Shown: positions 20,886 to 52,009, counted from the first letter of the stretch. The stretch is 63,106 bases of DNA from an archaeon GW2011_AR19 (GCA_000806015.1 JWKY01000007.1:1-63106), one strand, 5' to 3'. The notes: generated by a model from the letters alone, not told the origin. A program made the numbers and translations.

Positions 20886-23800
20886 CTACTTATTAACAGC
20901 TTCAACAATTTCTTTTTTTGCAGTCTTTTTGTCTTCTTCTCTTTTTACTAAAGGACCTATAACTTTAACAAGCAACCCTGGAAATCCTGTTCCAACAGGA
21001 ACCGGCTGATTTAAAATTATATTTTCAATAACGCTTTTTAATTTTTCTTTGCTTCCTTTAACTGTAGCATTTACAAATTGTTTTATTGGAGTTTCAAAAG
21101 TTGCCCTCGCAAGAATCGAAGACTTCTGCGCGATTATTCCCATTCTTGTAACTCCTTTAATCTGCCCGGTATTTGTTATAGCATCTGACGCCAGTTTAAG
21201 ATGATGGTCATCAATATCTAATCCCTGAGTATTAAGAACATATTTTATTTCATTAATAATTAATTGTCTTGCAGCTTCAATTCCAAAAACTTCCGCAATT
21301 TCATAAAAATCATTTGAAATAATTTTATCTTTATTTACTTCTTTCATTTTTATTATTTCTTCAATATTTGTTCCGAGAGTTATAATAACAAAATTATTCT
21401 CTTTTTTTAAAATTAAAATTTGTTTAATGCCCTTTACCCCTGAAATTATCGTATTCTTAAATTTCTCTTTTAACAGATAGATTTCTTTGAAAGAAAGAGC
21501 GTCAGAATTCAATACAATCATCTCGTCTTTTTCTTTTGCTTTAAAATTTAACTCATTTAATCTTTCAACTATCTTTTTTATAGTCACATGAGTTTTTTTT
21601 AAAGCTTCTTTGTCAATTTTTATTTCAATTATTTTTTTGCTGAAATTTATTGCAATTTCTGAAGAAACTTCTTTTAATGTCACTTCTTTTATTTTTTCAG
21701 CAAAGATTTCCGCATCTTTTTCATTATTGTATTCTTTATTTAAATAAATCTCCATTTTTGGAGAGGAAGGTTTTTTTCTCGCATCAAATATTTCTATCAG
21801 CCTTGGCAATCCCATAGTTACCTGCATCTCTGCAACACCTGCAAAATGGAATACATTTAATGCCATTTGTGTTGAAGGCTCTCCAAATGACTGGGCAGTT
21901 ACCAGTCCTAAAGCTTCACCCGGAACAATATTTCCGCCGGTATGCAATTCTGAAACATCTTTATTATCGTCGCCATATTTAAATTCTATTATTCTATTAT
22001 TGCTGTCTCTTACTGTTCCGTCATATTCTGCTCTTAAATCCTGGAAAGCGTTTGCAAGTCTTCTATATAAATAACCAGATTTTGGAGTTCTTAATGCAGT
22101 ATCCATTAAACTATCCCGTCCTGTAATAGAGCCAAAGAAAAATTCATCTGGCCTCAATCCTTTGATAAATGAATTTTTGATAAACCCTCTTGCTTTAGGA
22201 GATAAATCATTTTTCTTAAAAAAAGGAAGAGTTCTCTGAGTAAAACCAATATCAATTCTTTTACCCCACAATGCTTGTTGTCCGACACAGCAAGCCATTT
22301 GAGTAATATTTAAAATATTCCCGCCGCCTCCGGCTTTAATCATGCTATTTACCGGATTTTCTTTCGGGAATTTTTCTTTTACAATAGAACCAATTTTTGT
22401 TCTTACTTCATTTAAAACCTGAAGAATTTTTATTTCTCTGGATTCTTCTGAAGTCTTGCCGGGAATAATTTCAAGACTTTTATTTTCATAAGATTCAATA
22501 ATTTCTTTTGTTCTTTTTTCAGATTTTTTGATAATTTCTTCTGTTTCTTCAATAACACTTTCTTTTAAATCAAAATCTTCAACGCATGCAGTTATTCCAT
22601 GTTGAGTCAAATATGTTTTTCCAAGATTAAATGCTTTGGTAAGCGCATCAAAAGCTTCTTCTCTCCCAAAATCTTTGTCAATTTTTTTAATCAGCGCGCC
22701 ATCTTCAACGCCAAAAGTTGTTTTATCAATAACTCCTTTAATAATTTCTCCGTCTTTTATTTTAATTGAATCATTAGAAAAATCAATTTTTGGAAGAATC
22801 ATTGAAAATAGTTCAGTTCCTGAAATCTTTTTCTTTACAGGCTCAAAATCCAAGCCAGATTGATATAATAATTGGTTTGCATCTTCTTTTGAGAATTCAT
22901 TTAATCCTAAAAGATAATTTCCCGTTATAGAATCCTGCACACATCCGATTAAATTAGTATTATTTTTTGGAGACATCAAATTTTTTTTAACATCAAGCAA
23001 AATTTTTGCTTCTGCGCGCGCTTCTTCTGTTTGCGGACTGTGAATGTTCATTTCATCGCCGTCAAAATCAGCGTTATAAGGAGTGCAGACAGCAGGATGC
23101 ATTCTAAATGTTTTGCCCGGAAGAACTTTTACAAAATGGGCCATTAAACTTCCTCTATGCAGGCTCGGATGTCTGTTGAATAAAACAATATCTCCATCCT
23201 GTAAATGCCTTTCTACAATATATCCCTGAGAAATTTCAGCAATTATTTCTTCTTTTAATTCCTGAGAAATTTTTTTTCTTTTTCCATCCGGCCTCATAAT
23301 ATAATTAGCGCCGGGATAATCTTCTCCTTTTTCAATAAGTTTTATTAATTTTTTTATGTTAAGATCATTAACAGTCTCGGCAACAGTAATAATTTTTGCA
23401 ATTTCATAAGGAATGCCGACTTCATTAATTTTAAGAAAAGGATCAGGAGAAATAACTGTTCTGCCTGCATAATTTACTCTCTTACCGGCGATATTTTTTC
23501 TAATTCTTCCTTCCTTGCCTTTGATTCTTTCTGTAATCGTTTTTAATGGCTGACCGCTTCGGTGTCTTGCTGGAGGAATTTTTGAAACAGTATTATCAAA
23601 AAAAGTTGTGACATGAAACTGCAGCAAATCCCATAAATCTTCAATAATAACCTCGGGAGCGCCCGCATTTAAATTTTCCCACAACCTCTGATTAGCTCTT
23701 ATAATATCTGATAATTTATGCGTTAAATCATCTTCTGAACGTTCGCCGTTTTCTAAAATGATGCTTGGCCTTACAGTTACTGGCGGAACTAATAAAGAAG

Positions 23801-24371
23801 TTAGAATAGCCCATTCAGGTCTGAATGTCCCGCAATTAATTTCAATTTTTTCAAGTTCTTCATCCGGAACATTAACAAGAGTTTCTCTTATTTCTGTCGG
23901 GAAAAGTCTTTTTTTGCCTTTATAAAAAGTTGTTGGTTTGTCTAATTTAACTTTTTCCTGAAGACTCAAGCAGTAAGGGCATTTTTTCTTGTCCCTCGCT
24001 CTTTTTGCTCTTTTACTTGGAGAATATTTTTCCAATTCTTTTTCTTCAAGCATCAACTTGCCGCAACTTTGACAAAAAGCTCTTAAAACTAATTCAACTA
24101 AAGGAATATATTTCAAATGCATTATTGATCTGGCTAAATCAATACTTCCGGAATGTCCAAGACATTCTTTAAGTCTGTCTCCGCAGGTTCTGCATCTTAC
24201 TCCGGGATCAATTGCTCCAAGCCTTAAATCCATTAATCCGCCGTCAACAGGATATCCATCTATATCATAAAGTTCCGGCGTCACAATTTTTGCAACTGAA
24301 AGTTTTTTTATCTCTTCCGGACTAAGTAAAGAAAAACTTATTTCTCCTATTTTTTTTCTTATTGGTTTCAT
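20886..24371 (-). CDS. rpoA: RNA polymerase subunit A, unsplit (A' and A'' parts in one 1161-aa ORF)
   Basis: The N-terminal zinc region reads RCRTCGDRLKECLGHSG and the catalytic site reads NADFDGDEMN. It also has the bridge-helix region ITQMACCVGQQ and the A''-type trigger loop AQSFGEPSTQMALNVFHFAGVAE..GLPRLIEIFDARK. No stop codon occurs between these parts. Confidence 0.9.
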   Translation of the reverse strand: MKPIRKKIGEISFSLLSPEEIKKLSVAKIVTPELYDIDGYPVDGGLMDLRLGAIDPGVRCRTCGDRLKECLGHSGSIDLARSIMHLKYIPLVELVLRAFCQSCGKLMLEEKELEKYSPSKRAKRARDKKKCPYCLSLQEKVKLDKPTTFYKGKKRLFPTEIRETLVNVPDEELEKIEINCGTFRPEWAILTSLLVPPVTVRPSIILENGERSEDDLTHKLSDIIRANQRLWENLNAGAPEVIIEDLWDLLQFHVTTFFDNTVSKIPPARHRSGQPLKTITERIKGKEGRIRKNIAGKRVNYAGRTVISPDPFLKINEVGIPYEIAKIITVAETVNDLNIKKLIKLIEKGEDYPGANYIMRPDGKRKKISQELKEEIIAEISQGYIVERHLQDGDIVLFNRHPSLHRGSLMAHFVKVLPGKTFRMHPAVCTPYNADFDGDEMNIHSPQTEEARAEAKILLDVKKNLMSPKNNTNLIGCVQDSITGNYLLGLNEFSKEDANQLLYQSGLDFEPVKKKISGTELFSMILPKIDFSNDSIKIKDGEIIKGVIDKTTFGVEDGALIKKIDKDFGREEAFDALTKAFNLGKTYLTQHGITACVEDFDLKESVIEETEEIIKKSEKRTKEIIESYENKSLEIIPGKTSEESREIKILQVLNEVRTKIGSIVKEKFPKENPVNSMIKAGGGGNILNITQMACCVGQQALWGKRIDIGFTQRTLPFFKKNDLSPKARGFIKNSFIKGLRPDEFFFGSITGRDSLMDTALRTPKSGYLYRRLANAFQDLRAEYDGTVRDSNNRIIEFKYGDDNKDVSELHTGGNIVPGEALGLVTAQSFGEPSTQMALNVFHFAGVAEMQVTMGLPRLIEIFDARKKPSSPKMEIYLNKEYNNEKDAEIFAEKIKEVTLKEVSSEIAINFSKKIIEIKIDKEALKKTHVTIKKIVERLNELNFKAKEKDEMIVLNSDALSFKEIYLLKEKFKNTIISGVKGIKQILILKKENNFVIITLGTNIEEIIKMKEVNKDKIISNDFYEIAEVFGIEAARQLIINEIKYVLNTQGLDIDDHHLKLASDAITNTGQIKGVTRMGIIAQKSSILARATFETPIKQFVNATVKGSKEKLKSVIENIILNQPVPVGTGFPGLLVKVIGPLVKREEDKKTAKKEIVEAVNK

Positions 24372-24386
24372 GGGTATTTTTTAAAT

Positions 24387-24638
24387 TTATTTTATTGCCT
24401 CTTTCAATCTTTTTTCTAAAAAATTAATAGTTCCTTTATTATATCCGCCAATGTAAATACATCTACTTTTTGGACTTGATTTAATTATCGCTCCAGAAAA
24501 TTTATATTGAGAAAGACCACGAGAGGTAGTTTGATAAGTTGATGTTCCTGCGAATAACCATGCATCTGCTCTATTAAATAATTCTTCTGATTTTAATTTA
24601 ATTCTGTAATAAATTCTTTTTTCTATATTTTTTGTCAT
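24387..24638 (-). CDS. Small unknown protein (83 aa), second gene of a two-gene cassette between rpoB and rpoA
   Basis: ORF lying 2 nt after the upstream partner. Its C-terminal YIGGYNKGTINFLEKRLKEAIK is paralogous to the partner's KIEGYSKENMEFIQKTLESLV. Confidence 0.5.
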   Translation of the reverse strand: MTKNIEKRIYYRIKLKSEELFNRADAWLFAGTSTYQTTSRGLSQYKFSGAIIKSSPKSRCIYIGGYNKGTINFLEKRLKEAIK

Positions 24639-24640
24639 TT

Positions 24641-24922
24641 TTATTCTATGTCTCCTTCGCTTAAAATAATTGCACGTCTTTTTTCTGAATTTACAAGCGA
24701 TTCAAGAGTTTTTTGGATAAATTCCATATTCTCTTTGCTGTATCCTTCAATCTTAAATTTTTTTAAATCACTATAAGCAGTAATTTTTTCACTATATATC
24801 TTAAAAGTTAAATTTCCACCTACATTTTTTTCTTTTCCGTTTGTTTCTTTAACATAAGTTCCTAACCAATGAAGTCCATCATCATATTGCCTATCTGTTT
24901 TAGCTCTAATTGTTTCCATCAT
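24641..24922 (-). CDS. Small unknown protein (93 aa), first gene of the cassette between rpoB and rpoA
   Basis: ORF co-directional with the RNAP genes. Confidence 0.5.
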   Translation of the reverse strand: MMETIRAKTDRQYDDGLHWLGTYVKETNGKEKNVGGNLTFKIYSEKITAYSDLKKFKIEGYSKENMEFIQKTLESLVNSEKRRAIILSEGDIE

Positions 24923-28813: not shown

Positions 28814-28930
28814 GGCTCCGTAGCTCAGTTTGGTAGAGCACCGGACTTTTATGCGAAAACAAGTTTTCACGTGCTTCGTGAAAATCACAAAGCAATCCGG
28901 GTGTCGCGGGTTCAAATCCCGTCGGGGCCA
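28814..28930 (+). tRNA. tRNA-Lys (anticodon TTT) with a 43-nt intron at position 37/38 (about 28852..28894)
   Basis: The hand fold gives acceptor GGCTCCG/CGGGGCC, D arm GCTC-AGTTTGGTA-GAGC and anticodon stem CCGGA/TCCGG. The anticodon loop is CT-TTT-A[intron]A and the T arm is GCGGG-TTCAAAT-CCCGT. Confidence 0.85.
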
Positions 28931-29037: not shown

Positions 29038-29072
29038 GTCAGGACGGGAGTAAAATCCCGTCGGGGCCATTT
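29038..29072 (+). repeat. Duplicated tRNA-Lys 3' fragment (att-like direct repeat)
   Basis: aaatcccgtcggggccattt (29053..29072) is identical to 28914..28933 of the tRNA gene and its flank. Confidence 0.8.
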
Positions 29073-29074
29073 TA

Positions 29075-29250
29075 TATTTAATCGGGATTTGAACAATTCA
29101 AATCCTACTCCCGACCCCGCACGCGGGTTTTTTTAGAAAGGGATCACTACATTCACCCTCGTTCGTCTGTGAGCCAAACGAAAGAAACGCTACAAAATAA
29201 AAGAAAATTGCAATACCCGCTACCACGAAGTCGTTCGGTCGGGGCTATTT
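29075..29250. repeat. GC-richer mosaic repeat block
   Basis: It starts with the palindrome gggatttgaacaattcaaatcc, built from the tRNA T-loop sequence and its complement. It continues with ctcccgaccccgcacg and ends with ctaccacgaagtcgttcggtcgggg, as at 20782..20869. Confidence 0.65.
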
Positions 29251-30900
29251 TTATATTTTATTAGAATTTGAATTCTTGGATTTTTTCCGAATAAACTTAA
29301 ACCCCTCAAAAGCCACAAAAATTCCCAATACAAACATTCCAAGGGAGATTGTAGTTAAAGCAAAATTTCCTTGATTAAAATATCCGTTAGTTCTAAATGT
29401 TAAATAAATTAAAGCCGACAAAGTTGTTAATAAAACAAAAACTGCAGGAATTAAAATAAATTTAACATTTCTTTTTCTTGAGATAAAAAAACACGAAACT
29501 GCAATCAAAGAAATTGACGCAATCAGCTGATTTGAAGAGCCAAAAAGTTTCCATAAAGTTTCATAAGAATTTGTTACTGCCAAAAGCCAGGCAGGAATTA
29601 AAGTCAGTATTGTTGTCAAAAATCTGTTTTTAAATTTTGGAAAAAGATTTTCAGAAATCACCATCCTCCCCAATCTTGCAGAAGTGTCAACGGTTGTTAA
29701 AATAAATTGATTCACCATTATTGCTCCGAGAAGCACAGCAAAACTAATTGTTATTAAAGGAATACCAATACTCCCGACGATGTTTCCATAGCCGGAAGAA
29801 AATAAAGCAACCCATCCTTCTTTTAATGTTGCTTGAAAACCTCCGGAAATTTCACTTCCCCATTTTACTCCGGAGATAACTAAAACTGTGACTAAAATTG
29901 CAAGCGCCCCCTCTCCGAGCATTGAACCATAGCCGACCGCTTTTCCATGCGATTCTTTTGAAAGCTGTTTGCTTGTTAATCCCGACGAGACAAGTCCATG
30001 AAATCCAGAAACAGCGCCGCACGCAATAGTTATAAATAAAATTGGCCAGAGTGGAAAATTTCCTGAAATATAAATCGGCGCGCTGATTTTTGGATGCACC
30101 AAAATAATTCCTATAAATCCAAGAATCATAAGAATAAATAGCTGAATAGAACTCAAATAATCTCTTGGTCTTAAAAGAAGCCAGACAGGAGTTACCGACG
30201 CTATTCCGGCATAAAGAAGGATTATTGAAATCCAGATATTTCTCAGCAAAACAGGATTTTCAATTCCAAGATTAAGAGGATATTTATTTCCAATAAAAAT
30301 AAAAATAAAAACAAGAATAATTGCAATAATGCTTGAAATTTTATAATTCCATTTTAATTTTTCCACTCCAAATCCAAGAACCAGCGCAATTACTGAAATT
30401 GCAATCAGCGGAAGAACTAATTCTGATTTATAGATTATGCTTTCTGCCGTTGAAACAGAAAAAACAGTGATAATTAATACAAGCGCGACCCAAATCATTG
30501 CTCCAAAAACCCAGCCTGGTTTTGAACCTAAAAAATCTTTTGCAATATTTGAAACTCCTTTTGCTTTATTTCTTACTGAAGCCATTAAAGTTACATAATC
30601 ATGCATTGCGCCGATGAAAACTGCGCCGATTGAAATCCAAAGAACAACTGCAAGCCACCCAAAATAACTTACTGCTAAAATTGGTCCGATTATTGGTCCG
30701 GCTCCCGCAATTGATTCAAAATGATGCCCGATTAAAAATGGTTTTTTTGCAGGAGAAAAATCAATTTTATTTTTGCTGGTTAAAGCAGGAGTTTTATTTT
30801 TATCATTTGGCTTAATTTGTTTTTCAATAAATCTCCCGTAAATTTTATATCCAAGAAAAAACCACAACAAAATTATTATGATTAATAATGCAGAGTTCAT
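29251..30900 (-). CDS. cstA: Carbon starvation protein CstA-family transporter
   Basis: 549 aa and polytopic, with the CstA N-terminal signature GHHFESIAGAGPIIGPILAVSYFGW. Confidence 0.85.
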   Translation of the reverse strand: MNSALLIIIILLWFFLGYKIYGRFIEKQIKPNDKNKTPALTSKNKIDFSPAKKPFLIGHHFESIAGAGPIIGPILAVSYFGWLAVVLWISIGAVFIGAMHDYVTLMASVRNKAKGVSNIAKDFLGSKPGWVFGAMIWVALVLIITVFSVSTAESIIYKSELVLPLIAISVIALVLGFGVEKLKWNYKISSIIAIILVFIFIFIGNKYPLNLGIENPVLLRNIWISIILLYAGIASVTPVWLLLRPRDYLSSIQLFILMILGFIGIILVHPKISAPIYISGNFPLWPILFITIACGAVSGFHGLVSSGLTSKQLSKESHGKAVGYGSMLGEGALAILVTVLVISGVKWGSEISGGFQATLKEGWVALFSSGYGNIVGSIGIPLITISFAVLLGAIMVNQFILTTVDTSARLGRMVISENLFPKFKNRFLTTILTLIPAWLLAVTNSYETLWKLFGSSNQLIASISLIAVSCFFISRKRNVKFILIPAVFVLLTTLSALIYLTFRTNGYFNQGNFALTTISLGMFVLGIFVAFEGFKFIRKKSKNSNSNKI

Positions 30901-30977
30901 TTTTCACCTTTAAATATATAAGAAAAAACGATTTATAAATTTTGAGAAATTTAGAATGATTCCTTAAATTGTCCAAA

Positions 30978-31274
30978 TCAGTTAATCTGAAAAAATCCTT
31001 CTTTAAATTTTTCTTTAATTTCTTCTTTTGAAAAAGGATGTAAAACTTTTGCAAGATCTTTTTTCCATCTTCCAACTCTTGTTATGTTTTTCCCTTCAAT
31101 TAAATAAGCTGAATGGATTTCGTATTTTCTATCAAATCTGCTAAAATATGAAGTTGTAACATATTCAGCATCACCATTGGCAGGTTCTATTAAATAGATA
31201 GTTTCCACATATCCGAAATTATTTTTCGTTTTTTCACCTCGTCTTATTTTAGCCGGCCAAATCATTTCCGCCAT
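30978..31274 (-). CDS. Small unknown protein (98 aa), gene 9 of the small-gene operon
   Basis: ORF lying 1 nt after the upstream gene. Confidence 0.45.
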   Translation of the reverse strand: MAEMIWPAKIRRGEKTKNNFGYVETIYLIEPANGDAEYVTTSYFSRFDRKYEIHSAYLIEGKNITRVGRWKKDLAKVLHPFSKEEIKEKFKEGFFQIN

Positions 31275-31275
31275 T

Positions 31276-31524
31276 TTAATTATCCTTGCTCATTTCATTT
31301 AATCCTAAATGATGCCTTTTAGGAAAACGTATGTCTTCAAAACTTCTGTGTAAAAGCTTTAAATTTTTGTCGTTAAAATAAATATATGTTCTGTGTTCTG
31401 TCAGTTCATTTTGCATTTCTTTCTTTGCGTCAAAATAAGCAAATTCCGAAAAATTCCTCACATTATAAATAATTCCTTCAAATTCATTTCCCGTTTCTAT
31501 ATTGCCTAAATTTTCATTTGTCAT
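31276..31524 (-). CDS. Small unknown protein (82 aa), gene 8
   Basis: ORF that starts with aaaATGACAAA, as do several neighbours. Confidence 0.45.
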   Translation of the reverse strand: MTNENLGNIETGNEFEGIIYNVRNFSEFAYFDAKKEMQNELTEHRTYIYFNDKNLKLLHRSFEDIRFPKRHHLGLNEMSKDN

Positions 31525-31525
31525 T

Positions 31526-31750
31526 TTAATTTCCCCTTATTTTTTCAGCGTCAATAAAATCATAATCTGTCAATTCTTTGTTTATTACTTTATCTGTTTT
31601 ACGCTCGTATTTTATCAAATAATTTTCCTTATATGCAATCTTAACGCTATCTCCATCGTCAAACTTTTCCCATAATTTTTTATATTTATCTTCTTCTCCA
31701 ATAATAGGAAATTTGTTTCCGTGTTCGCATCTAAAAACAATTCCCCACAT
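31526..31750 (-). CDS. Small unknown protein (74 aa), gene 7; may be the C-terminal part of a frameshifted lipoprotein
   Basis: Protein-like ORF (MWGIVFRCEHGNKFPIIGEEDKYKKLWEKF..) that overlaps 31615..31884 by 136 nt in another frame. Confidence 0.45.
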   Translation of the reverse strand: MWGIVFRCEHGNKFPIIGEEDKYKKLWEKFDDGDSVKIAYKENYLIKYERKTDKVINKELTDYDFIDAEKIRGN

Positions 31751-31884
31751 TTCAGGGAAGGTTGTTGAATTAACTGAAATCGCAATATCTCCTCCTCATT
31801 TTTTGTATATTCTGAACATCCATTTAACATAATGCTTACTGCGGGAATCATTACAAGTTTTGTTAAATTTTTTAATGTTTTCAT
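31615..31884 (-). CDS. Putative lipoprotein precursor (lipobox LNGC); its 3' half is of doubtful coding quality
   Basis: The signal/lipobox reads MKTLKNLTKLVMIPAVSIMLNGCS. The start overlaps the upstream gene by ATGA. Confidence 0.4.
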   Translation of the reverse strand: MKTLKNLTKLVMIPAVSIMLNGCSEYTKNEEEILRFQLIQQPSLKCGELFLDANTETNFLLLEKKINIKNYGKSLTMEIALRLHIRKII

Positions 31885-32138
31885 TTTTTATTTTTATTAG
31901 TTTGATTATAAATTTCTTTTGCAGCCAAATATGCCCCAAAAGAAGAAACTTTAGATACAAATGGCAAGTTTTTGTAGATTTCCATTCTGTCTTTAGCGAT
32001 TTCATTTTTATATTCTTCTTTTAAATTTTTCAGAAAATTATTTTCTTGGCTATATGAAGAATAATTAAAAGCTCCAAAATATCCCCCGCATATTATAAGT
32101 CCCCCGATTATAACCTTTAAAAGATTTTTTTGATTCAT
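31881..32138 (-). CDS. Small membrane-anchored protein (85 aa), gene 5
   Basis: Has an N-terminal TM segment LLKVIIGGLIICGGYFGAF. Confidence 0.45.
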   Translation of the reverse strand: MNQKNLLKVIIGGLIICGGYFGAFNYSSYSQENNFLKNLKEEYKNEIAKDRMEIYKNLPFVSKVSSFGAYLAAKEIYNQTNKNKK

Positions 32139-32139
32139 C

Positions 32140-32394
32140 TTAATCCTCTGTCAAAATCTTTTCCAAGTTTTTTAAAGTTGAGCTTTTTCTTTCGCCAAGA
32201 GATTCTGAAACTGCTTTGTCAGTTAAGTAATTTTGGTAAGCTAAGGTAAGCTTATTATAAAGCTCCATTTTTTCTTGAATTTTTTTCTTTTTGTCATCGG
32301 TTAATTTATTAAATTCTTCCTGAGGCATTTTAGGGATTATTTCTCCAATATAAAGATCTTTTAGCTCTCCCTTGACTTTTTTGCTTCCGCCCAT
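32140..32394 (-). CDS. Small charged helical protein (84 aa), gene 4
   Basis: ORF. Confidence 0.45.
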   Translation of the reverse strand: MGGSKKVKGELKDLYIGEIIPKMPQEEFNKLTDDKKKKIQEKMELYNKLTLAYQNYLTDKAVSESLGERKSSTLKNLEKILTED

Positions 32395-32417
32395 TAATTC
32401 TGAGTATAAGTCGCTGA

Positions 32418-32666
32418 CTAATCTCTAAATAAATCATTTTCCTCGCCAGATTCTAAATCATAATTTTTCAAGCCCGAATTAAATGAAGGCAGATATTTAA
32501 ATTTCTCAACAGCAGAACCTCCTGCCTCGCCATAACCTCCGGACTCTTCAACTAAAAAAGCGCTTGCTAAATTCATTAAGTTCCCAGCTTTCAAATTCTT
32601 CAAAGCAATTTTTCTTATTCTTTCTTTTGCTTCTTCAATTTCTTGCGGTGTTGGTTGGTTTGTCAT
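32418..32666 (-). CDS. Small unknown protein (82 aa), gene 3
   Basis: ORF whose start overlaps the upstream gene by 4 nt. Confidence 0.45.
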   Translation of the reverse strand: MTNQPTPQEIEEAKERIRKIALKNLKAGNLMNLASAFLVEESGGYGEAGGSAVEKFKYLPSFNSGLKNYDLESGEENDLFRD

Positions 32667-33019
32667 TTTGTTTTTGAATTTATTTTATTTAAGTAATTAG
32701 TATATTTCTTTTGGTATCTCTTAATCTCTTTTTTATCTCCTTCAGATCTGGAATAAGCATGTGCTTCGTTTGCTTTACAAACCCCATTAATAGGACGGGA
32801 ATAAACATAAACACCATCTATAGAATCTTTATTATGATATGAACTATAAATAAAAACAGAATCGTTGGTTATTACTTTAAGCGGGTCTGCTAAAGAAAGA
32901 TTATATTTTACAATTTCTCCATCAAGATTATACTTTTTATAGCCATCAAACAAAATCACACTTCCAGCTAAAGATAAACCCAATCCAATTCCAAGTAGTT
33001 TACTAATTAAATTTGTCAT
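32663..33019 (-). CDS. Membrane-anchored unknown protein (118 aa), gene 2
   Basis: Has an N-terminal TM segment LLGIGLGLSLAGSVILF. Confidence 0.45.
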   Translation of the reverse strand: MTNLISKLLGIGLGLSLAGSVILFDGYKKYNLDGEIVKYNLSLADPLKVITNDSVFIYSSYHNKDSIDGVYVYSRPINGVCKANEAHAYSRSEGDKKEIKRYQKKYTNYLNKINSKTK

Positions 33020-33020
33020 T

Positions 33021-33524
33021 TTATTTCTGCTCTCCTTCTAATTTATCTTCCAAATTTCTTTTTTTAAAAGCGTTTTTAATTAATTTTGGAACATTCTTTA
33101 ATCCGTAAATCTGAATAAAAGGGAAATAATTATCCCCGAGTTCATTATATAATCCTGCCTGCAATACAAAAGCGTCTTTGTTTTCTTCTTTTATAATATT
33201 TGCAAGGGTCCCATATTGAAATAAAAAATCTTTAACACCTTTAGAATAATTAAAAACTCCTGCAATATTTGCTCCCTTTGAATCCCCGTCAATTTTATTT
33301 ACAAGTCCTGCAATATTTGTTCCCTTTGAATCTCCTTTAATTAAATTTACCCATGCAATATTTGCTCCCTTTGAATCCCCATCAATTTCATTTTCAAATA
33401 AGGTAATATTTGCTCCCTTTGAATCTCCTTCAACATTTTTATACAGCAAATTAAAATCAGCTCCGCTAAAAGTTTTATATTTTGACCAAATAAATGGAAT
33501 TTTTAGGTATTTTTGTTCTGTCAT
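33021..33524 (-). CDS. Repeat protein (167 aa) with four tandem 15-16-aa GDSKGANIA repeats, gene 1
   Basis: The repeats read EGDSKGANITLFENEID / GDSKGANIAWVNLIK / GDSKGTNIAGLVNKID / GDSKGANIAGVFNYSK. Confidence 0.5.
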   Translation of the reverse strand: MTEQKYLKIPFIWSKYKTFSGADFNLLYKNVEGDSKGANITLFENEIDGDSKGANIAWVNLIKGDSKGTNIAGLVNKIDGDSKGANIAGVFNYSKGVKDFLFQYGTLANIIKEENKDAFVLQAGLYNELGDNYFPFIQIYGLKNVPKLIKNAFKKRNLEDKLEGEQK

Positions 33525-33681
33525 TTTATTTTTATCTATTTAACTACTTAATAGTTAATATTTATAATTATTACAAGATATGGGGGTTTATAAATGTTTT
33601 GGTTATGTTGTAACTTGATAGAAATAACAATTTAAAAGAGAATAAATACAAAATCTTTAATAACTCTTTCCTTCTTTATAA

Positions 33682-34062
33682 TTGATGAAAAAAGATTACA
33701 ATGCAGAAATAAAAGAATTAACTGCGAAATTATCCAAGAATAGTTCAATTCTTGCGATTTATCTTTTTGGAAGTTATCCTGAAAATTTTCGCCCAATGTC
33801 GGATATAGATATTTGCGTTATTGGGCAATTAAATAAAATTCAAAAAAAGAAGATTTTAAGGGATTTTTCAGAGAAATTTGATATTTCGTTTTTTGATGAA
33901 CTGCCAATTACAATAAAAATCAAGGTTTTCAGCGAAGGAAAAGAACTTTTTTCCAAAGATAAAGAAAAATTGCATGAGCTTAAATGGAAAACTTTTTATC
34001 AATACAGAGAAATTGCTCCATTCATACAACAAAGAATAGATTCTATGCTTCAAAATGCTTAA
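33682..34062 (+). CDS. Minimal nucleotidyltransferase (MNT) antitoxin
   Basis: Contains LAIYLFGSYPENFRPMSDIDICVIG and overlaps the HEPN gene by 8 nt. Confidence 0.75.
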   Translation: MMKKDYNAEIKELTAKLSKNSSILAIYLFGSYPENFRPMSDIDICVIGQLNKIQKKKILRDFSEKFDISFFDELPITIKIKVFSEGKELFSKDKEKLHELKWKTFYQYREIAPFIQQRIDSMLQNA

Positions 34063-34468
34063 CAAAGAAAGATTAAATTTTATTGTTGAAGATGTAAACA
34101 TTTATTTTGAAAAGTTAAGAAAAATTTCTCCGACAAAAGAAAATTTGAATAATGATGAAAAATTTCTATCAACTTCTATGGCAATTTTTCAAATTCTAAA
34201 TAGAATGATTGATTTAGCAGACGAAATAGTTAAAATTGAGAAGATTGGCTATCCTCTTCAAATAAAAGATTTATTTACCTTTTTAAAAGAAAAAAACATT
34301 ATTGACAAAAAACTTGAAAGAAAGCTAAAAGATTTAGTAATTTCAAGAAATAAATTTTCTCACAGATACGGAAATATAAACAAAGAAGAAATTTTATTAA
34401 TATTAAAAGAATTAGATTCTGTAAAGAATTTTATTAAAGTTATTCTCGCGCATTTAAATAAAAAATAG
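34055..34468 (+). CDS. HEPN (DUF86-type) toxin
   Basis: Has the R-x4-H motif ISRNKFSHRYG. Confidence 0.7.
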   Translation: MLNKERLNFIVEDVNIYFEKLRKISPTKENLNNDEKFLSTSMAIFQILNRMIDLADEIVKIEKIGYPLQIKDLFTFLKEKNIIDKKLERKLKDLVISRNKFSHRYGNINKEEILLILKELDSVKNFIKVILAHLNKK

Positions 34469-34516
34469 TCTTAAGAAACTTCATAAATTTGTTAAATTTT
34501 TTCTCCGCAATCTGTT

Positions 34517-34765
34517 TTAATTATAAATATTCTTTCTATGTCCGATTCTAATTACAATAATTTTATTCATAGAAACAACGACATCTACAATAGCCCGATA
34601 GTCCATAATTCTTAATCTCCATAATTTCTCGCCTTGTAATCTTTTAAGATATCTGAATGGATTTTCTCTAACTGAATAAATTTTTTTTAAAATAATTTCA
34701 GCATCATCTTTTTGCAATTTTTTAAGAAAAGTTTTTGCTATTTCAGTAATCTCTATCTGAAACAT
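34517..34765 (-). CDS. RelE/ParE-superfamily toxin
   Basis: Contains ..RENPFRYLKRLQGEKLWRLRIMDYRAIVDV...IIVIRIGHRKNIY. Confidence 0.7.
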   Translation of the reverse strand: MFQIEITEIAKTFLKKLQKDDAEIILKKIYSVRENPFRYLKRLQGEKLWRLRIMDYRAIVDVVVSMNKIIVIRIGHRKNIYN

Positions 34766-34766
34766 T

Positions 34767-35003
34767 TTATTTTAAAGTTATCCCTAACTCTTTTGCAACT
34801 TGTTCAATAGGTTTTATTTTCCCCATTTTAACATCTTCTAAACCTTTTTTTATTTCTTCGATTTCATCATCGCTTAAATTCTCCTCTTCGCAATTATCTA
34901 TTATTGTATTCAGTACTTCATCATAAGATTGTCTTTCAAAATTTTTAAGAGCTTTTAGTCTATTTAATGTTTCAAGATTGATTTGTATTGTTGTTTTTTC
35001 CAT
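34767..35003 (-). CDS. Putative antitoxin
   Basis: 78 aa, lying 1 nt upstream of the RelE-like gene. Confidence 0.5.
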   Translation of the reverse strand: MEKTTIQINLETLNRLKALKNFERQSYDEVLNTIIDNCEEENLSDDEIEEIKKGLEDVKMGKIKPIEQVAKELGITLK

Positions 35004-35092: not shown

Positions 35093-35216
35093 AATAAATT
35101 TTCATACTGAAAATTCATAATCACAAATCGTTGTTTGCTCAAATACCCTAAAACAAGGGCATAAATAAATTTTCATACAACTAATTCATAATCACAAATT
35201 GTTATTTGTTCAAATA
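35093..35216. repeat. Two diverged copies (about 35093..35145 and 35165..35216) of the 49-nt repeat, inverted relative to 37245..37342
   Basis: ttcatactgaaaattcataatcacaaatcgttgtttgctcaaata matches the reverse complement of tatttgaacaaacaacgatttgtgattatgaatttttagtat. Confidence 0.8.
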
Positions 35217-35221
35217 AATTT

Positions 35222-35752
35222 TTATGCTAAAAATTTATAATCAACTCTTGTCCTGCAAGGCAATTTTGGTTTAAGTTGTTTTATTATTTTTCTTGTAAAG
35301 ATTACTGCTTTTTCATTTGGAACAGCAATAAAAAAAATCCTGTCTCCGGGTTTAACAACCGCGGCTTTGCCAATAGACTTGCCAAAAGATAATTGCATTC
35401 CTGTCTGCATTCTATCTGCTCCAGCTCCTGTAATCATTTTATTTTCTCTCTGAATCTGGTGCGGATAAGGAATAATTTTAAAATAAAATTGACCGGGAAA
35501 TTTCTCCTCCAATTCTTTATGAAGATGCCGCCTGCAGGCTTCAATAGCATTATGTCTTATCTGAACTTTTTCGCAGGAAACCAGCGTTAAATGATGTTTT
35601 AATTTAGAAAGATTATTATTCCCCATCGTGAATTTTGTAATGCTCTGCGGCGGAATTGTTTTAATATATGCCTTATTTTTTATACTGCTATTTCTAGTGA
35701 AGGGAGTAACGTTCTTTTTTGAATACGAATTTGCTTTTCTTAAGGTCGCCAT
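35222..35752 (-). CDS. rpl10e: Ribosomal protein L10e (uL16)
   Basis: Contains ..IRHNAIEACRRHLHKELE......IPYPHQIQRENKMITGAGADRMQTGM...GK..G.AA.V.PG..I. Confidence 0.85.
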   Translation of the reverse strand: MATLRKANSYSKKNVTPFTRNSSIKNKAYIKTIPPQSITKFTMGNNNLSKLKHHLTLVSCEKVQIRHNAIEACRRHLHKELEEKFPGQFYFKIIPYPHQIQRENKMITGAGADRMQTGMQLSFGKSIGKAAVVKPGDRIFFIAVPNEKAVIFTRKIIKQLKPKLPCRTRVDYKFLA

Positions 35753-35815
35753 TTTTTCTCCTTGTTTGAATGGGGAACTTCAGACGAAATTTTAATTTCA
35801 GTCAAGGTCGCCATT

Positions 35816-36079
35816 TTATTCTGTTGCCATTTCCATTAATTTATTTTTTATTTCTTTGCTTATTGAGTTTGGAATAATCATTTTATCAATATAAACATTT
35901 TTTTGTGAAGAAGTAAAATATCCTCTTGCTGATTTAAGCGAAATTCCCGATGAATAATATTTTTTTACAACTCTTAAATTTCTTCCTTCTATTTGATGGG
36001 TGCCGTATAAACCAGATAAATAATTCTCAATGAAACTTAAATTTCCAGGTTCTACATTAATTAAAATTTTATTTTTCAT
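35816..36079 (-). CDS. Small unknown protein (87 aa), second gene of a two-gene cassette between L35Ae and L10e
   Basis: ORF lying 2 nt after its partner. Size, order and C-terminal helix pattern parallel 24387..24638. Confidence 0.5.
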   Translation of the reverse strand: MKNKILINVEPGNLSFIENYLSGLYGTHQIEGRNLRVVKKYYSSGISLKSARGYFTSSQKNVYIDKMIIPNSISKEIKNKLMEMATE

Positions 36080-36081
36080 TT

Positions 36082-36354
36082 TTAGTATATTTTTTTAGAA
36101 TTTTCTAAAAGACTTTGTTCTAGTTCTTTTAAAAAATTTTTATTTTTTTCTTTAACTTCAGACGAAGGGTATTTGAAAATTAACTTTCCAGATTCTAAAT
36201 CAACATAAACTTCCTTCTTGTCGCTGGAAGAGGCTTTATAGTTTTTTTCCCCGATACATTCTAACCCCGAATAATCATTCCCCATCAGCATTTTACTAAT
36301 TATTGCCAAATATCCGCTTCTCGGAGTAAAATTTAACAAAGCATGATTATTCAT
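36082..36354 (-). CDS. Small unknown protein (90 aa), first gene of the cassette
   Basis: ORF whose start overlaps the L35Ae stop by ATGA. Its C-terminal NKNFLKELEQSLLENS resembles NMEFIQKTLESLVNS of 24641..24922. Confidence 0.5.
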   Translation of the reverse strand: MNNHALLNFTPRSGYLAIISKMLMGNDYSGLECIGEKNYKASSSDKKEVYVDLESGKLIFKYPSSEVKEKNKNFLKELEQSLLENSKKIY

Positions 36355-37244: not shown

Positions 37245-37342
37245 ATTATGAATTTTTAGTATAAAAATTTATTTGAACAAACAACGATTTGTGATTATGA
37301 ATTTTTAGTATAAAAATTTATTTGAACAAACAACGATTTGTG
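37245..37342. repeat. Perfect tandem duplication (2 x 49 nt) upstream of recQ
   Basis: The unit attatgaatttttagtataaaaatttatttgaacaaacaacgatttgtg occurs twice and contains a TATA-like gtataaaaattt. Confidence 0.9.
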
Positions 37343-37386
37343 AGTGATTAAACAAAATATGCAAATATTAAGGAATTATAAAAAAG

Positions 37387-40239: not shown

Positions 40240-40572
40240 TTATTTTACTTTCCAAATTTCTCCGTCGCAGTCATATTTTGAACAGCTTAAAAGCACAGGA
40301 GAATATTGCACAAAGGGTTCGCAGGAAATCTTATTTAACTCTCCTGTAAAACATTTTTCACTGACCTTTTGACAAAGTCTTTTTTCATCCATTAATTCAT
40401 ATCCTTCGGAACAAATTATTTTTTCTCTTTCAACACACTCGCAGTTGTTTTCAAGAGCTATTTCTTTTTTGCTTCCTTCTTTTACAACATTTCCTGTAAA
40501 ATTCTTAACTATAAAAAAACCAGAAACTAATAATGCCAATACTAAAATTGCGGCTAAAATTTTTCTTGACAT
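40240..40572 (-). CDS. Membrane-anchored cysteine-rich protein (110 aa)
   Basis: Uses the internal ATG at 40572 (MSRKILAAILVLALLVSGFF). It has 10 cysteines, including CEC, and is separated from the upstream remnant's shifted-frame stop by 1 nt. Confidence 0.5.
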   Translation of the reverse strand: MSRKILAAILVLALLVSGFFIVKNFTGNVVKEGSKKEIALENNCECVEREKIICSEGYELMDEKRLCQKVSEKCFTGELNKISCEPFVQYSPVLLSCSKYDCDGEIWKVK

Positions 40573-40573
40573 T

Positions 40574-40959
40574 TTAAGAAACAATAATTTTTCCGTCTTT
40601 ACTTGGCTGCAAATGATTATGATAAGCCCAACTGCCGACGTGTGTGTTGGATGAAAAGCACTGGCAGGCCAAACTTCAGTAATTAACTTATTTATCCAAG
40701 TTACTTTATCGCCTTTTTTTATTTCTAAATTTTTTGAGACAAATCCCTCATTCGTAATTTCTACAAAGTGTTCTGTTAGTTCAGGAGTTTCTGAAATTAT
40801 ATCTTCCTGAGGAGGTCCTAAATTTTCTTCAGAAGTTTCATCCTGAGTGTTTTTTTTAGAAAGCAAATTGATTCCCAAAATTATTAGAACAATTACTGCA
40901 ATAATTACTATGCTTATAACAACTCCACTGCCACTGGTTTTTTTAGCTTTTTTTGCCAT
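40574..40959 (-). pseudogene. Cupredoxin-like domain gene disrupted by an internal deletion and frameshift
   Basis: The TM anchor is followed by ..LEIKKGDKVTWINK...WPASAFHPTHT. The expected C-terminal module GSWAYHNHLQPSKDGKIIVS* is present only in the adjacent frame (stop at 40574..40576). Confidence 0.5.
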
Positions 40960-51881: not shown

Positions 51882-52009
51882 GCGTGAGTAGTTCAGCGGC
51901 AGAACGTCTCGTTGCCAATGTGGGAGAACCAATGTTCCTTGACAATCAACCTCCTTTAAGAGAGAAAAGCAAACACGAGATAACCCGAGTTCGAATCTCG
52001 GCTCGCGCA
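51882..52009 (+). tRNA. tRNA-Gly (anticodon GCC) with a 57-nt intron at 37/38 (about 51918..51974)
   Basis: The hand fold gives acceptor GCGTGAG/CTCGCGC, D arm GTTC-AGCGGCA-GAAC and anticodon stem TCTCG/CGAGA. The anticodon loop is TT-GCC-A[intron]A and the T arm is CCGAG-TTCGAAT-CTCGG. Confidence 0.8.

What the first reader, a model, noticed from the sequence alone, without database searches (positions are those of the whole stretch)
30978..33524. Tightly packed operon of nine unrecognisable small genes (74-167 aa), several membrane-anchored or lipoprotein-like
Nine co-directional ORFs lie between the divergent MNT/HEPN pair and cstA. They are joined by 1-nt spacers or 4-nt overlaps, with a single 23-nt gap. 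Gene 1 carries four tandem GDSKGANIA repeats. Genes 2 and 5 have N-terminal TM anchors, and gene 6 has a lipobox (LNGC). The others are small, soluble, beta-rich or helical proteins. Four genes start with the same aaaATGACA(A/G)A context (MTN.., MTE..). I recognise no family for any of the nine. The packing implies co-translation and a shared function. Candidates include an envelope or host-contact complex, a toxin/immunity array, or a remnant of a virus- or plasmid-derived module.
Basis: partly seen in the sequence, partly recalled or inferred. Interest (0 to 1): 0.65.

Follow-up and report, generated by a model that had tools for sequence, protein, structure and literature searches.

The report
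Variable small-gene operon in a Pacearchaeote
The "nine genes" are really seven tightly coupled, lineage-restricted genes of an uncultured DPANN archaeon (two look split only because this assembly lacks 127 and 94 bases), and they sit in a chromosomal hot spot where related strains carry different sets of such small genes; their function is still unknown.

Summary
The ORFs exist at the stated coordinates, but the count is wrong. Eight other assemblies of the same sequence, and contigs from the best-matching public runs, are otherwise identical but carry 127 extra nt at window 32419|32420 and 94 extra nt at 31795|31796. With these segments, reader genes 3+4 form one 217-aa protein (G3) and genes 6+7 form one 150-aa lipoprotein (G5). 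The operon therefore has seven genes (167, 118, 217, 85, 150, 82, 98 aa), and every junction is a 1-nt spacer or a 4-nt overlap. G1, G3, G5 and G7 show purifying selection, and G2 and G6 have protein homologues. Pfam, PHROGs and PADLOC give no hit. G1 alone gives a marginal LA_2272-repeat hit. Confident AF2 models (G3 all-alpha, G1 beta-solenoid) have no significant PDB neighbour, nor G3 a BFVD one. The organism is a Pacearchaeote. In its relatives the rpl10e–cstA interval holds 4 to at least 23 different co-directional small genes. These genes are shuffled between two hot spots, lie next to TA modules and share a start context, TAAAATGACAAA (Met-Thr in 43/76 array genes versus 19/197 others). 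I found no integrase, flanking att sites or viral relatives. Best reading: a flexible-island cassette operon that is partly envelope-anchored; its function is inferred, not shown.

The parts
33021..33524 (-). G1 (reader gene 1), 167 aa. Predicted beta-solenoid built of about 16-aa GDSKGANIAG repeats, with a basic C-terminal helix. No signal peptide.
   Evidence: ORF. 8 homologues at 43-89% identity with variable repeat number. dN/dS 0.23-0.29. AF2 pLDDT 87, with only weak beta-helix neighbours in PDB. LA_2272_repeat 28.6 bits against a cut-off of 25; VC2662_fam 34.6 bits against a cut-off of 140.
32663..33019 (-). G2 (reader gene 2), 118 aa. N-terminal signal anchor followed by a small beta-rich domain.
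   Evidence: Hydrophobic segment at residues 8-18. An 81%-identical homologue sits in a different array (L037), and L018 carries a recombinant allele.
32420..32666 (-). G3 5' part (reader gene 3). It is cut short in the window by the missing 127 nt; the apparent stop codon is created by the junction.
   Evidence: The intact 217-aa ORF is L009:7757-8410.
32140..32419 (-). G3 3' part (it contains reader gene 4, 32140-32394). G3 is a 217-aa all-alpha protein and the most conserved member of the operon.
   Evidence: 29 homologues of 195-227 aa at 39-96% identity; the missing segment holds conserved residues. dN/dS 0.24-0.47. AF2 pLDDT 82.8 and pTM 0.79, with no PDB or BFVD neighbour. Lies directly downstream of rpl10e in L027-L029 and two small genes after it in L026.
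31881..32138 (-). G4 (reader gene 5), 85 aa. N-terminal membrane anchor followed by a short helical tail.
   Evidence: Hydrophobic segment at residues 6-16. The only relative found is 36% identical, lying two genes upstream of G3 in L023. Coding status is the least well supported of the seven.
31796..31884 (-). G5 5' part (start of reader gene 6): signal peptide and lipobox (MLNGC).
   Evidence: The Cys is invariant in 16/16 homologues.
31526..31795 (-). G5 3' part (it contains reader gene 7, 31526-31750). The intact G5 is a 150-aa lipoprotein.
   Evidence: The 94-nt segment is present in L009 and L013 and in Logan contigs. 16 full-length homologues at 58-98% identity. dN/dS 0.15-0.30.
31276..31524 (-). 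G6 (reader gene 8), 82 aa, soluble.
   Evidence: 46% identical homologue in L001 at the same position, and two paralogues (42-43%) in L033.
30978..31274 (-). G7 (reader gene 9), 98 aa, soluble and beta-rich. It is the last gene before cstA.
   Evidence: 74% identical homologue in L001; dN/dS 0.53. Only about 4 small homologues among 1.84 billion representative proteins.
33525..33681 (.). 157-bp divergent intergenic region between G1 and the MNT gene. It is the presumed operon promoter (TTTATAAA at about 33587-33594 on the minus strand).
   Evidence: Read from the sequence; this is inference only. The sigma-70 scan is not informative for an archaeon.
30901..30977 (.). 77-bp spacer between G7 and cstA. 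It holds a T6 run (presumed archaeal terminator) and a TATA-like box plus an AGGTGA Shine-Dalgarno-like motif for cstA.
   Evidence: Read from the sequence; inference.
33682..35003 (.). Flanking toxin-antitoxin genes: MNT (33682-34062, +), HEPN/HepT (34055-34468, +), ParE-like toxin (34517-34765, -) and a DUF7557 antitoxin-like gene (34767-35003, -).
   Evidence: Precomputed Pfam hits on the identical contigs L009-L011.

Best explanation
The locus is one operon of seven genes (G1-G7) in the chromosome of a Pacearchaeota (DPANN) archaeon. It is not nine genes.

Reader genes 3/4 and 6/7 are the halves of G3 (217 aa) and G5 (150 aa). They look split because 127 nt and 94 nt are missing from this assembly. 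This is most likely an assembly artefact and less likely a rare deletion variant.

The operon occupies a recombination hot spot between rpl10e and cstA. In that spot, related genomes carry different arrays of 4 to at least 23 co-directional small genes drawn from a shared pool of lineage-restricted families. The same families also populate a second hot spot, between FEN1/c24 and TYW2.

Inferred expression: one transcript starts in the 157-bp region upstream of G1. The genes are then translated by termination-reinitiation across 1-nt spacers or ATGA overlaps. An array-specific start context, TAAAATGACAAA (Met-Thr-Asn), is part of this.

Inferred function: G3, a cytoplasmic all-alpha protein anciently linked to rpl10e, is the resident core. 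G2 and G4 (signal-anchored) and G5 (lipoprotein) place part of the products on the cell envelope. G1 (beta-solenoid), G6 and G7 are small soluble partners. Swapping cassettes between strains varies envelope or cell-contact properties of an organism presumed to live on other cells.

Shown: gene structure, coding status, mosaicism, start motif, sequence-level localisation signals.
Inferred: single transcript, translational coupling, envelope or host-contact role.
For: Gene structure:
- Eight otherwise identical assemblies and the Logan contigs carry the 127-nt and 94-nt segments.
- Full-length homologue families exist for the fused proteins.
- A third window-only gap of 112 nt lies at 40639|40640, which points to an assembly problem.

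Coding:
- dN/dS is 0.15-0.53 for G1, G3, G5 and G7.
- G2 has an 81%-identical homologue and G6 has 42-46% homologues.

Organism and hot spot:
- CstA relatives are Pacearchaeota/Nanoarchaeota MAGs.
- The rpl10e-cstA interval differs in L001, L002, L030 and L033, while the flanking RpoB, RpoA, RecQ, L35Ae and CstA proteins are 88-94% identical.
- G3, G2, G5-like and G4-like genes recur in arrays at the FEN1-TYW2 locus.
- Strain-level breakpoints fall at cassette borders: L014 diverges at G2|G3, L017 diverges upstream of G1, and L018 has a G2 recombinant patch.
- Sequencing depth is uneven across the locus in other samples.

Start motif:
- 4 of the 5 window matches are in the cluster, against 0.68 expected.
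- The second residue is Thr in 43/76 array genes against 19/197 others, and positions -3 to +9 carry higher information content.

Envelope:
- N-terminal anchors and a lipobox are present, with the Cys invariant.
- A lipoprotein or membrane-anchored gene lies within four genes downstream of G3 in the six loci where further co-directional small genes follow it (L009, L019, L022, L023, L028, L030); in L026, L027 and L029 none does.
- Sister arrays include an anchored SLT lytic transglycosylase (50 bits) and signal-bearing proteins with HExxH and JAB-like motifs.

G3-rpl10e synteny holds at 31-47% identity.
Against: - No experimental or transcript data exist. RNA runs from the same study hold none of the sequence.
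- About three quarters of array proteins have no export signal, so 'envelope module' describes only part of the content.
- No complex prediction was possible.
- G3, the conserved core, has no recognisable fold or motif that ties it to the envelope.
- TA modules and a PADLOC candidate ATPase next to the arrays fit a conflict or defence island equally well.
- G4 has only one weak relative.
- G2 shows an excess of non-synonymous changes in one comparison (15 against 3), although this patch is a recombinant tract.
- Contigs cannot exclude that the deletions exist as a rare real variant.
Confidence: 0.55

Rival explanations
1. The array is a conflict-system island. The small genes would be toxin/immunity pairs, orphan immunity genes, or defence/anti-defence cassettes that accumulate beside TA modules. 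Exported members would act as effectors against neighbouring cells, and cytoplasmic members would act as immunity proteins.
For: - ParE/DUF7557, MNT/HEPN, PIN/RHH or Fic genes flank the arrays in most loci.
- A PADLOC PDC-S01 ATPase sits next to the L037 array.
- In L030, an exported 207-aa protein has an RHS repeat (31 bits, cut-off 22). It lies two genes after a 213-aa protein with a sub-threshold Imm70 hit (22 bits, cut-off 26.7).
- Paralogue expansions occur within arrays (c4 x4, c19 x2, G3 x2, G6 x2), and content turns over quickly.
- Most members are small cytoplasmic ORFans.
Against: - None of the seven window proteins has a toxin, nuclease, immunity or PADLOC hit.
- There is no large polymorphic toxin with a trafficking domain.
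- G3 is vertically conserved next to rpl10e down to 31% identity, which is unlike a selfish cassette.
- G1, G3 and G5 are under purifying rather than diversifying selection.
- An SLT enzyme in an archaeon would need no self-immunity.
Confidence: 0.25
2. The operon is a remnant of an integrated virus, plasmid or other mobile element.
For: - It is a dense run of short ORFans with tight coupling, which is typical of viral or plasmid accessory regions.
- Its presence varies between close relatives.
- A tRNA-Lys with repeated copies of its 3' end lies on the far side of cstA.
- One G1 homologue sits in a contig next to a Toprim protein.
Against: - There is no integrase, capsid, terminase or replication gene in or beside the cluster.
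- No direct repeats flank it, and the tRNA-end copies lie 28.9-29.25 kb, beyond cstA.
- GC content is 0.27-0.31, like the rest of the window.
- The G3 profile finds no relative in 2.9 million IMG/VR contigs.
- There is no BFVD fold match for G3 and no PHROG hit.
- The arrays sit at the same chromosomal position between core genes in several genomes.
Confidence: 0.07
3. There is no common function. The array would be a passive dump of unrelated, individually dispensable small genes. They would be co-transcribed only because the hot spot tolerates insertions, and the conserved start context would simply be what permits expression there.
For: - Content is mosaic, with few fixed neighbour pairs. 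Only G6-G7 and loose associations between G3 and a membrane protein recur.
- Families are narrow: G7 has about 4 small homologues among 1.84 billion representative proteins.
- The window assembly, if real, tolerates loss of G3 and G5.
Against: - Several members are under purifying selection.
- G3 recurs with lipoprotein or anchored genes and with G1 or G2 relatives in independent contexts.
- G3 shows deep synteny with rpl10e.
Confidence: 0.13

Closest known systems
Flexible (hypervariable) genomic islands at fixed chromosomal positions in streamlined environmental microbes, such as SAR11 HVR2 and the Prochlorococcus islands. This comparison is from my own knowledge; related papers were listed but not read.
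   Same: - Conserved flanking core genes (L35Ae/rpl10e on one side, cstA/rpoH/rpoB on the other).
- Strain-specific ORFan content.
- Uneven recruitment in metagenomes.
- Partial enrichment for envelope proteins.
   Different: - This locus is built almost entirely of very short genes (60-220 aa) in one orientation, joined by 1-nt spacers or 4-nt overlaps.
- The genes share a start context, TAAAATGACAAA.
- The same families shuttle between two hot spots.
- It contains no glycosyltransferase or other surface-polysaccharide genes.
Integron gene-cassette arrays
   Same: - Co-directional promoter-less cassettes expressed from one upstream promoter.
- Cassette content is shuffled between strains.
- TA genes lie inside or beside the array.
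   Different: - There is no IntI integrase.
- There are no attC sites, and 1-nt spacers leave no room for them.
- The only shared junction is about 12 nt around the start codon.
Polymorphic-toxin / orphan immunity gene arrays (Rhs, CDI, T6SS immunity islands)
   Same: - Arrays of small, fast-turning-over ORFs with paralogues.
- An RHS-repeat hit and an Imm70-like hit occur in a sister array.
- TA-rich neighbourhood.
   Different: - No large toxin gene, no recognisable toxin tip and no secretion-system genes.
- None of the seven window proteins matches an immunity or toxin family.
LA_2272-repeat / VC2662-family proteins (NCBIfam NF047436, NF047437). These are uncharacterised bacterial repeat proteins; VC2662 is called an uncharacterised hypothetical protein in PMC10865864.
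   Same: G1 has short Gly/Asn-rich repeats that reach the LA_2272_repeat domain cut-off. It aligns to positions 46-139 of the VC2662 model.
   Different: - Only 2-3 of the 9 G1-family members give these hits.
- The VC2662 score is far below its cut-off.
- G1 is archaeal, lacks a signal peptide and has its own conserved C-terminal half.

Membership tests
LA_2272 family surface repeat-containing protein (NCBIfam NF047436) - tested for G1 | Domain model score at or above the curated cut-off of 25 bits. | tested here: inconclusive
   G1 scores 28.6 bits, but only 2 of the 9 G1-family members match at E<=0.01.
LA_2272 family surface repeat-containing protein (NCBIfam NF047436) - tested for G1 | Exported or surface protein, meaning an N-terminal signal or lipoprotein signal as the family name implies. 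| tested here: not met
   G1 has no N-terminal hydrophobic segment; the best 11-residue Kyte-Doolittle window scores 0.44.
VC2662 family (NCBIfam NF047437) - tested for G1 | Equivalog model score at or above 140 bits. | tested here: not met
   G1 scores 34.6 bits and covers model positions 46-139 of 187.
Integron cassette array | A tyrosine-recombinase IntI gene next to the array, and an attC site after each cassette. | tested here: not met
   No recombinase appears among the neighbours (Pfam list). Junctions are 1-nt spacers or 4-nt overlaps. No repeated palindromic element was found.
Integrated virus / plasmid / genomic island of the integrase type | Integrase, flanking att direct repeats (often a tRNA 3' end), and hallmark viral or conjugation genes. 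| tested here: not met
   There is no integrase or hallmark gene. The tRNA-end repeats lie beyond cstA and do not flank the operon. There is no IMG/VR relative.
Polymorphic toxin / immunity array | A recognisable toxin domain or large multidomain toxin, and immunity-family proteins immediately downstream. | tested here: inconclusive
   The seven window proteins give no hit. The sister array L030 has RHS_repeat at 31.2 bits (above cut-off) and Imm70 at 22 bits (below the 26.7 cut-off).
Flexible genomic island (hot spot with conserved flanks) | Same flanking core genes but different gene content in closely related genomes. | tested here: met
   L001, L002, L030 and L033 compared with the window: flanking proteins are 88-94% identical, while the arrays share only some families.
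Lipoprotein (lipobox-dependent) - tested for G5 | A signal peptide ending in a lipobox with an invariant Cys at +1. | tested here: met
   G5 begins MKTLKNLTKLVMIPAVSIMLNGC. The Cys is invariant in 16/16 homologues, while the -2 residue is non-canonical (N/A/G/S). Lipidation itself cannot be tested with these tools.
Diversity-generating retroelement target (considered for the variable patches) | Adenine-specific substitutions relative to a template repeat, with a reverse transcriptase nearby. | tested here: not met
   The 18 changes in the L018 G2 patch are mostly G>A and C>T. They equal the allele in L037, so the patch is a recombination tract. No template repeat was found.

The most novel reading that the evidence does not exclude
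Pacearchaeota may carry a previously undescribed kind of cassette array that works without an integrase. In this reading, dozens of unrelated small genes share a roughly 12-25-nt junction (TAAAATGACAAAYTTAATYAAYAAA, encoding Met-Thr-Asn-Leu-Ile-Asn-Lys). That junction would serve both as a termination-reinitiation signal and as microhomology for swapping cassettes between two chromosomal hot spots. The arrays would be organised around a new-fold protein (G3) linked to rpl10e, and would diversify the cell-contact surface, or the conflict repertoire, of an episymbiotic archaeon.
Probability: 0.15. Interest if true: 0.75.

Novelty: new variant of a known kind. Interest (0 to 1): 0.45.

Why it matters
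DPANN archaea have tiny genomes, and how they attach to or compete with other cells is largely unknown. A chromosomal hot spot where strains exchange tightly coupled small genes, some of them envelope-anchored, is a concrete place to look for host-range or conflict determinants. G3 (217 aa) and G5 (150 aa) are well-conserved families. G3 has a confident predicted structure with no known structural neighbour, which makes it a good target for structural and interaction studies. The array-specific start context gives a testable handle on translational coupling in archaea.

There is also a practical lesson. This contig has at least three roughly 100-nt gaps that create false split or fused ORFs, so gene calls from it need checking against other assemblies.

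Tried and rejected
1. Known families. Pfam, PHROGs, NCBIfam and PADLOC were run on the nine fragments and on intact G3 and G5. Only the marginal G1 repeat hit came up. A sub-threshold DacZ_T hit to G3 residues 10-43 appears in 17/27 members, but they share almost the same N-terminus, so it is one observation. It scores 17-19 bits against a cut-off of 27, and I treat it only as a lead.

2. Solved structures by sequence, for the G1, G3 and G5 profiles: nothing at E<0.1.

3. Fold search. G3 against PDB gave a best E of 1.1; the top hits, syntaxin and IncA, have TM about 0.15, which is noise. G3 against BFVD gave a best E of 0.46. G1 against PDB gave a best E of 0.15, all generic beta-helices.

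4. Viral origin: the IMG/VR scan with the G3 profile was negative.

5. att sites and tRNA. No repeats flank the operon. The tRNA-Lys 3'-end copies lie beyond cstA.

6. DGR-type hypervariability: rejected. The substitutions are not A-specific, and the patch equals another allele.

7. Protein-coding introns as an explanation for the missing 127, 94 and 112 nt: rejected. The window is DNA, and every other DNA assembly contains the segments.

8. Transcript evidence: no RNA run holds the sequence.

9. The sigma-70 promoter scan is not meaningful for an archaeon and was not enriched.

10. The G7 hits to 834-1450-aa repeat proteins are short beta-hairpin repeat matches with no informative domain.

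11. G6 in GTDB genomes: no close relative was found by the pattern scan.


Full report
**What is in the window.** Nine minus-strand ORFs of 74-167 aa lie between the MNT/HEPN pair (33682-34468, +) and cstA (29251-30900, -). Four GDSKG(A/T)NI(A/T) repeats are present in ORF 1, and Tandem Repeats Finder reports them at 33261-33433 with period 48/93. AAAATGACARA occurs five times in the 63-kb window, four of them at gene starts in this cluster, against 0.68 expected from shuffles. GC content is 0.27-0.31, the same as the rest of the window.

**Nine ORFs are seven genes.** The exact 167-aa product of ORF 1 is encoded on 16 other public contigs.
- Eight of these (L009-L013, L015-L017) are 99-100% identical to the window across the operon (most of them 100%). 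They carry 127 extra nt between window 32420 and 32419, and L009 and L013 also carry 94 extra nt between 31796 and 31795.
- With these segments, ORFs 3+4 become one 217-aa ORF (G3, L009:7757-8410) and ORFs 6+7 become one 150-aa ORF (G5, L009:8666-9118).
- The stop codon of 'gene 3', the 23-nt gap and the 136-nt overlap are all scars of the missing segments. Both lengths are 1 modulo 3.
- In the intact form all six junctions are a 1-nt spacer or an ATGA overlap.
- Logan contigs of the two runs that hold most of the sequence show the 94-nt insert directly. They also run from both sides into the 127-nt insert, and no contig joins the window's junctions.
- G3 has 29 homologues, nearly all of 195-227 aa, at 39-96% identity. 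G5 has 16 full-length homologues at 58-98% identity. The missing segments contain invariant residues.
- A third window-only gap of 112 nt at 40639|40640 fuses two unrelated genes.
- Three gaps of about read length in roughly 18 kb of comparable sequence point to an assembly artefact. Contigs cannot exclude a rare real variant.

**Are they genes?** Approximate Nei-Gojobori estimates, made on blastn alignments to homologues in other loci, are as follows:

| Gene | dN/dS |
|---|---|
| G1 | 0.23-0.29 |
| G3 | 0.24-0.47 |
| G5 | 0.15-0.30 |
| G7 | 0.53 |

- G6 has 42-46% protein homologues in L001 and L033.
- G2 has an 81% homologue in L037.
- G4 has only one 36% relative and is the weakest case.

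**What the proteins look like.**
- Pfam, PHROGs and PADLOC give nothing significant for the fragments or for intact G3 and G5.
- G1 reaches the NCBIfam LA_2272_repeat domain cut-off (28.6 bits against 25). It partly aligns to the VC2662 family model (34.6 bits against 140).
- Only 2-3 of the 9 G1 relatives give these hits. VC2662 itself is an uncharacterised protein (PMC10865864).
- The AF2 model of G1 (pLDDT 87) is a beta-solenoid with a C-terminal helix. Its PDB neighbours are weak (E>=0.15), mostly generic left-handed beta-helix proteins.
- Repeat number in G1 varies between strains.
- The AF2 model of G3 (pLDDT 82.8, pTM 0.79) is all-alpha. It has no neighbour in PDB (best E 1.1) or BFVD (best E 0.46), and the profile search of PDB sequences was empty.
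- G2 and G4 have N-terminal hydrophobic anchors.
- G5 has a signal peptide ending in LNGC, with the Cys invariant in all 16 homologues.
- G1, G3, G6 and G7 have no export signal.

**Organism and neighbourhood.** CstA relatives identify the organism as a Pacearchaeota/Nanoarchaeota (DPANN) archaeon from groundwater. The operon is embedded among core genes:
- L35Ae, two small ORFs and rpl10e;
- then a DUF7557/ParE pair and the MNT/HEPN pair;
- then G1-G7;
- then cstA, an intron-bearing tRNA-Lys, rpoH and rpoB.

There is no integrase, no flanking direct repeat and no viral relative.

**A hot spot with mosaic content.** Relatives whose RpoB, RpoA, RecQ, L35Ae and CstA are 88-94% identical to the window carry different co-directional small-gene arrays in the same rpl10e-cstA interval:

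| Locus | Content between rpl10e and cstA |
|---|---|
| L001 | six small genes, of which only G6 (46%) and G7 (74%) are shared with the window |
| L002 | four small genes, none shared |
| L033 | twelve small genes, including G5, two G6 paralogues and G7 |
| L030 | at least 23 small genes, including two G3 copies, G1, G5, G7 and several paralogue families |

Further observations:
- rpl10e and its two small upstream neighbours are themselves unusually divergent (63-74%), so the exchanged tract includes them.
- G3, G2, G4-like and G5-like genes also occur in arrays at a second locus between FEN1/c24 and TYW2. There they sit with an anchored SLT lytic transglycosylase (50 bits), signal-bearing proteins with HExxH and JAB-like motifs, and again a DUF7557/ParE pair.
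- In more distant genomes (31-47% identity), G3 follows L35Ae-rpl10e, directly in L027-L029 and after two small genes in L026. I therefore take it to be the old resident of this position.
- At strain level, L014 diverges exactly at the G2|G3 junction and L017 diverges upstream of G1. L018 carries a G2 whose 3' patch equals the L037 allele, which is a recombination tract and not DGR-type mutagenesis.
- Sequencing depth across the locus is very uneven in other samples, with peaks on conserved parts of G3.

**A shared start context.** Across eight arrays, 43 of 76 genes start Met-Thr, against 19 of 197 other genes in the same loci. Positions -3 to +9 (AAA ATG ACA AAC) carry much more information than at other genes. 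Eight otherwise unrelated array genes begin M(T/K)(N/T)L(I/K)(N/S)K, against one gene elsewhere. Combined with 1-nt spacers and ATGA overlaps, this fits translation by termination-reinitiation, which is my inference. It could also provide microhomology for cassette exchange, which is speculative.

**Interpretation.** The firm part: this is a seven-gene operon of lineage-restricted proteins sitting in a flexible genomic island of a Pacearchaeote. The functional part is inference.
- Three of the seven products are envelope-anchored.
- G3 recurs with lipoprotein or anchored genes, and sister arrays carry exported hydrolases. I therefore favour a role in envelope or cell-contact variation.
- A conflict-system (toxin/immunity or defence) reading remains a serious rival. 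The supporting points are the TA genes, a PDC-S01 ATPase neighbour, an RHS-repeat protein with an Imm70-like neighbour in L030, and paralogue expansions.
- A virus or plasmid remnant is unlikely.
- Spurious ORFs are excluded for at least five, and probably six, of the seven.

**Limits.** There is no transcript evidence, no complex prediction and no raw-read check of the three gaps. The dN/dS values are approximate. Gene calling in the comparison loci used a simple longest-ORF rule.

Noticed in passing
window 40639|40640 (ORF 40240..40959, -): This is a third segment missing only from the window. It is 112 nt, present in L010:2827-2938. Its absence fuses a 165-aa membrane-anchored protein and a 110-aa Cys-rich protein into a false 239-aa ORF.
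   Followed up: partly
window 37245-37343 and 35093-35265: A 49-nt unit is tandemly repeated 2.0 times upstream of recQ, and its copy number differs in L009 and L010. Three related copies lie in the opposite orientation between rpl10e and the DUF7557 gene. Together the copies bracket the L35Ae-orf90-orf87-rpl10e block. They contain TATA-like boxes.
   Followed up: partly
window 28814-28930 (+), 29050-29072, 29231-29250: Rfam finds a tRNA with a 44-nt intron (anticodon loop CUUUUA, so probably Lys-UUU) that ARAGORN missed. A 17-20-nt copy of its 3' end lies 139 nt downstream, and a degenerate third copy abuts the cstA stop. These are att-like scars on the far side of cstA and do not flank the operon.
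   Followed up: partly
window 51882-52009 (+): Rfam detects a second intron-containing tRNA (52.9 bits) that ARAGORN did not report.
   Followed up: no
window 35222-36354 compared with L001 and L002: rpl10e (72-74% aa) and the two small ORFs upstream of it (63-74%) are far more divergent than RpoB, RpoA, RecQ, L35Ae and CstA (90-94%) between the same genomes. The exchanged or hypervariable tract therefore seems to include a ribosomal protein gene.
   Followed up: partly
L030:1-9100: This is a run of at least 23 co-directional, tightly packed small genes without firm Pfam hits, lying upstream of cstA-rpoH-rpoB. It contains two G3 copies, G1, G5, G7, an RHS-repeat protein, an Imm70-like protein, and paralogue families c4 x4, c19 x2 and c17 x2.
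   Followed up: partly
L029 (JAHYJW010000002.1): The contig is labelled 'Patescibacteria group bacterium' but carries archaeal L35Ae and L10e followed by a G3 relative. It is probably mis-binned or mislabelled.
   Followed up: no
L019/L020/L021:2294-3166 (-): A 290-aa protein with Pfam Sigma70 regions 1.2, 2 and 3 lies next to a family-B DNA polymerase on contigs that otherwise look like Pacearchaeota. A bacterial-type sigma factor would be unexpected in an archaeon.
   Followed up: no
L037:1235-2509: A 424-aa AAA ATPase matches the PADLOC candidate defence family PDC-S01 (359 bits). It sits directly upstream of a sister array made of G2, c39 and a G5-like lipoprotein.
   Followed up: no
window 24631-24641 (-): This is the only AAAATGACAAA match outside the operon. 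It lies between the 93-aa ORF 24641-24922 and the large rpoA-like ORF 20886-24371. I did not examine it further.
   Followed up: no
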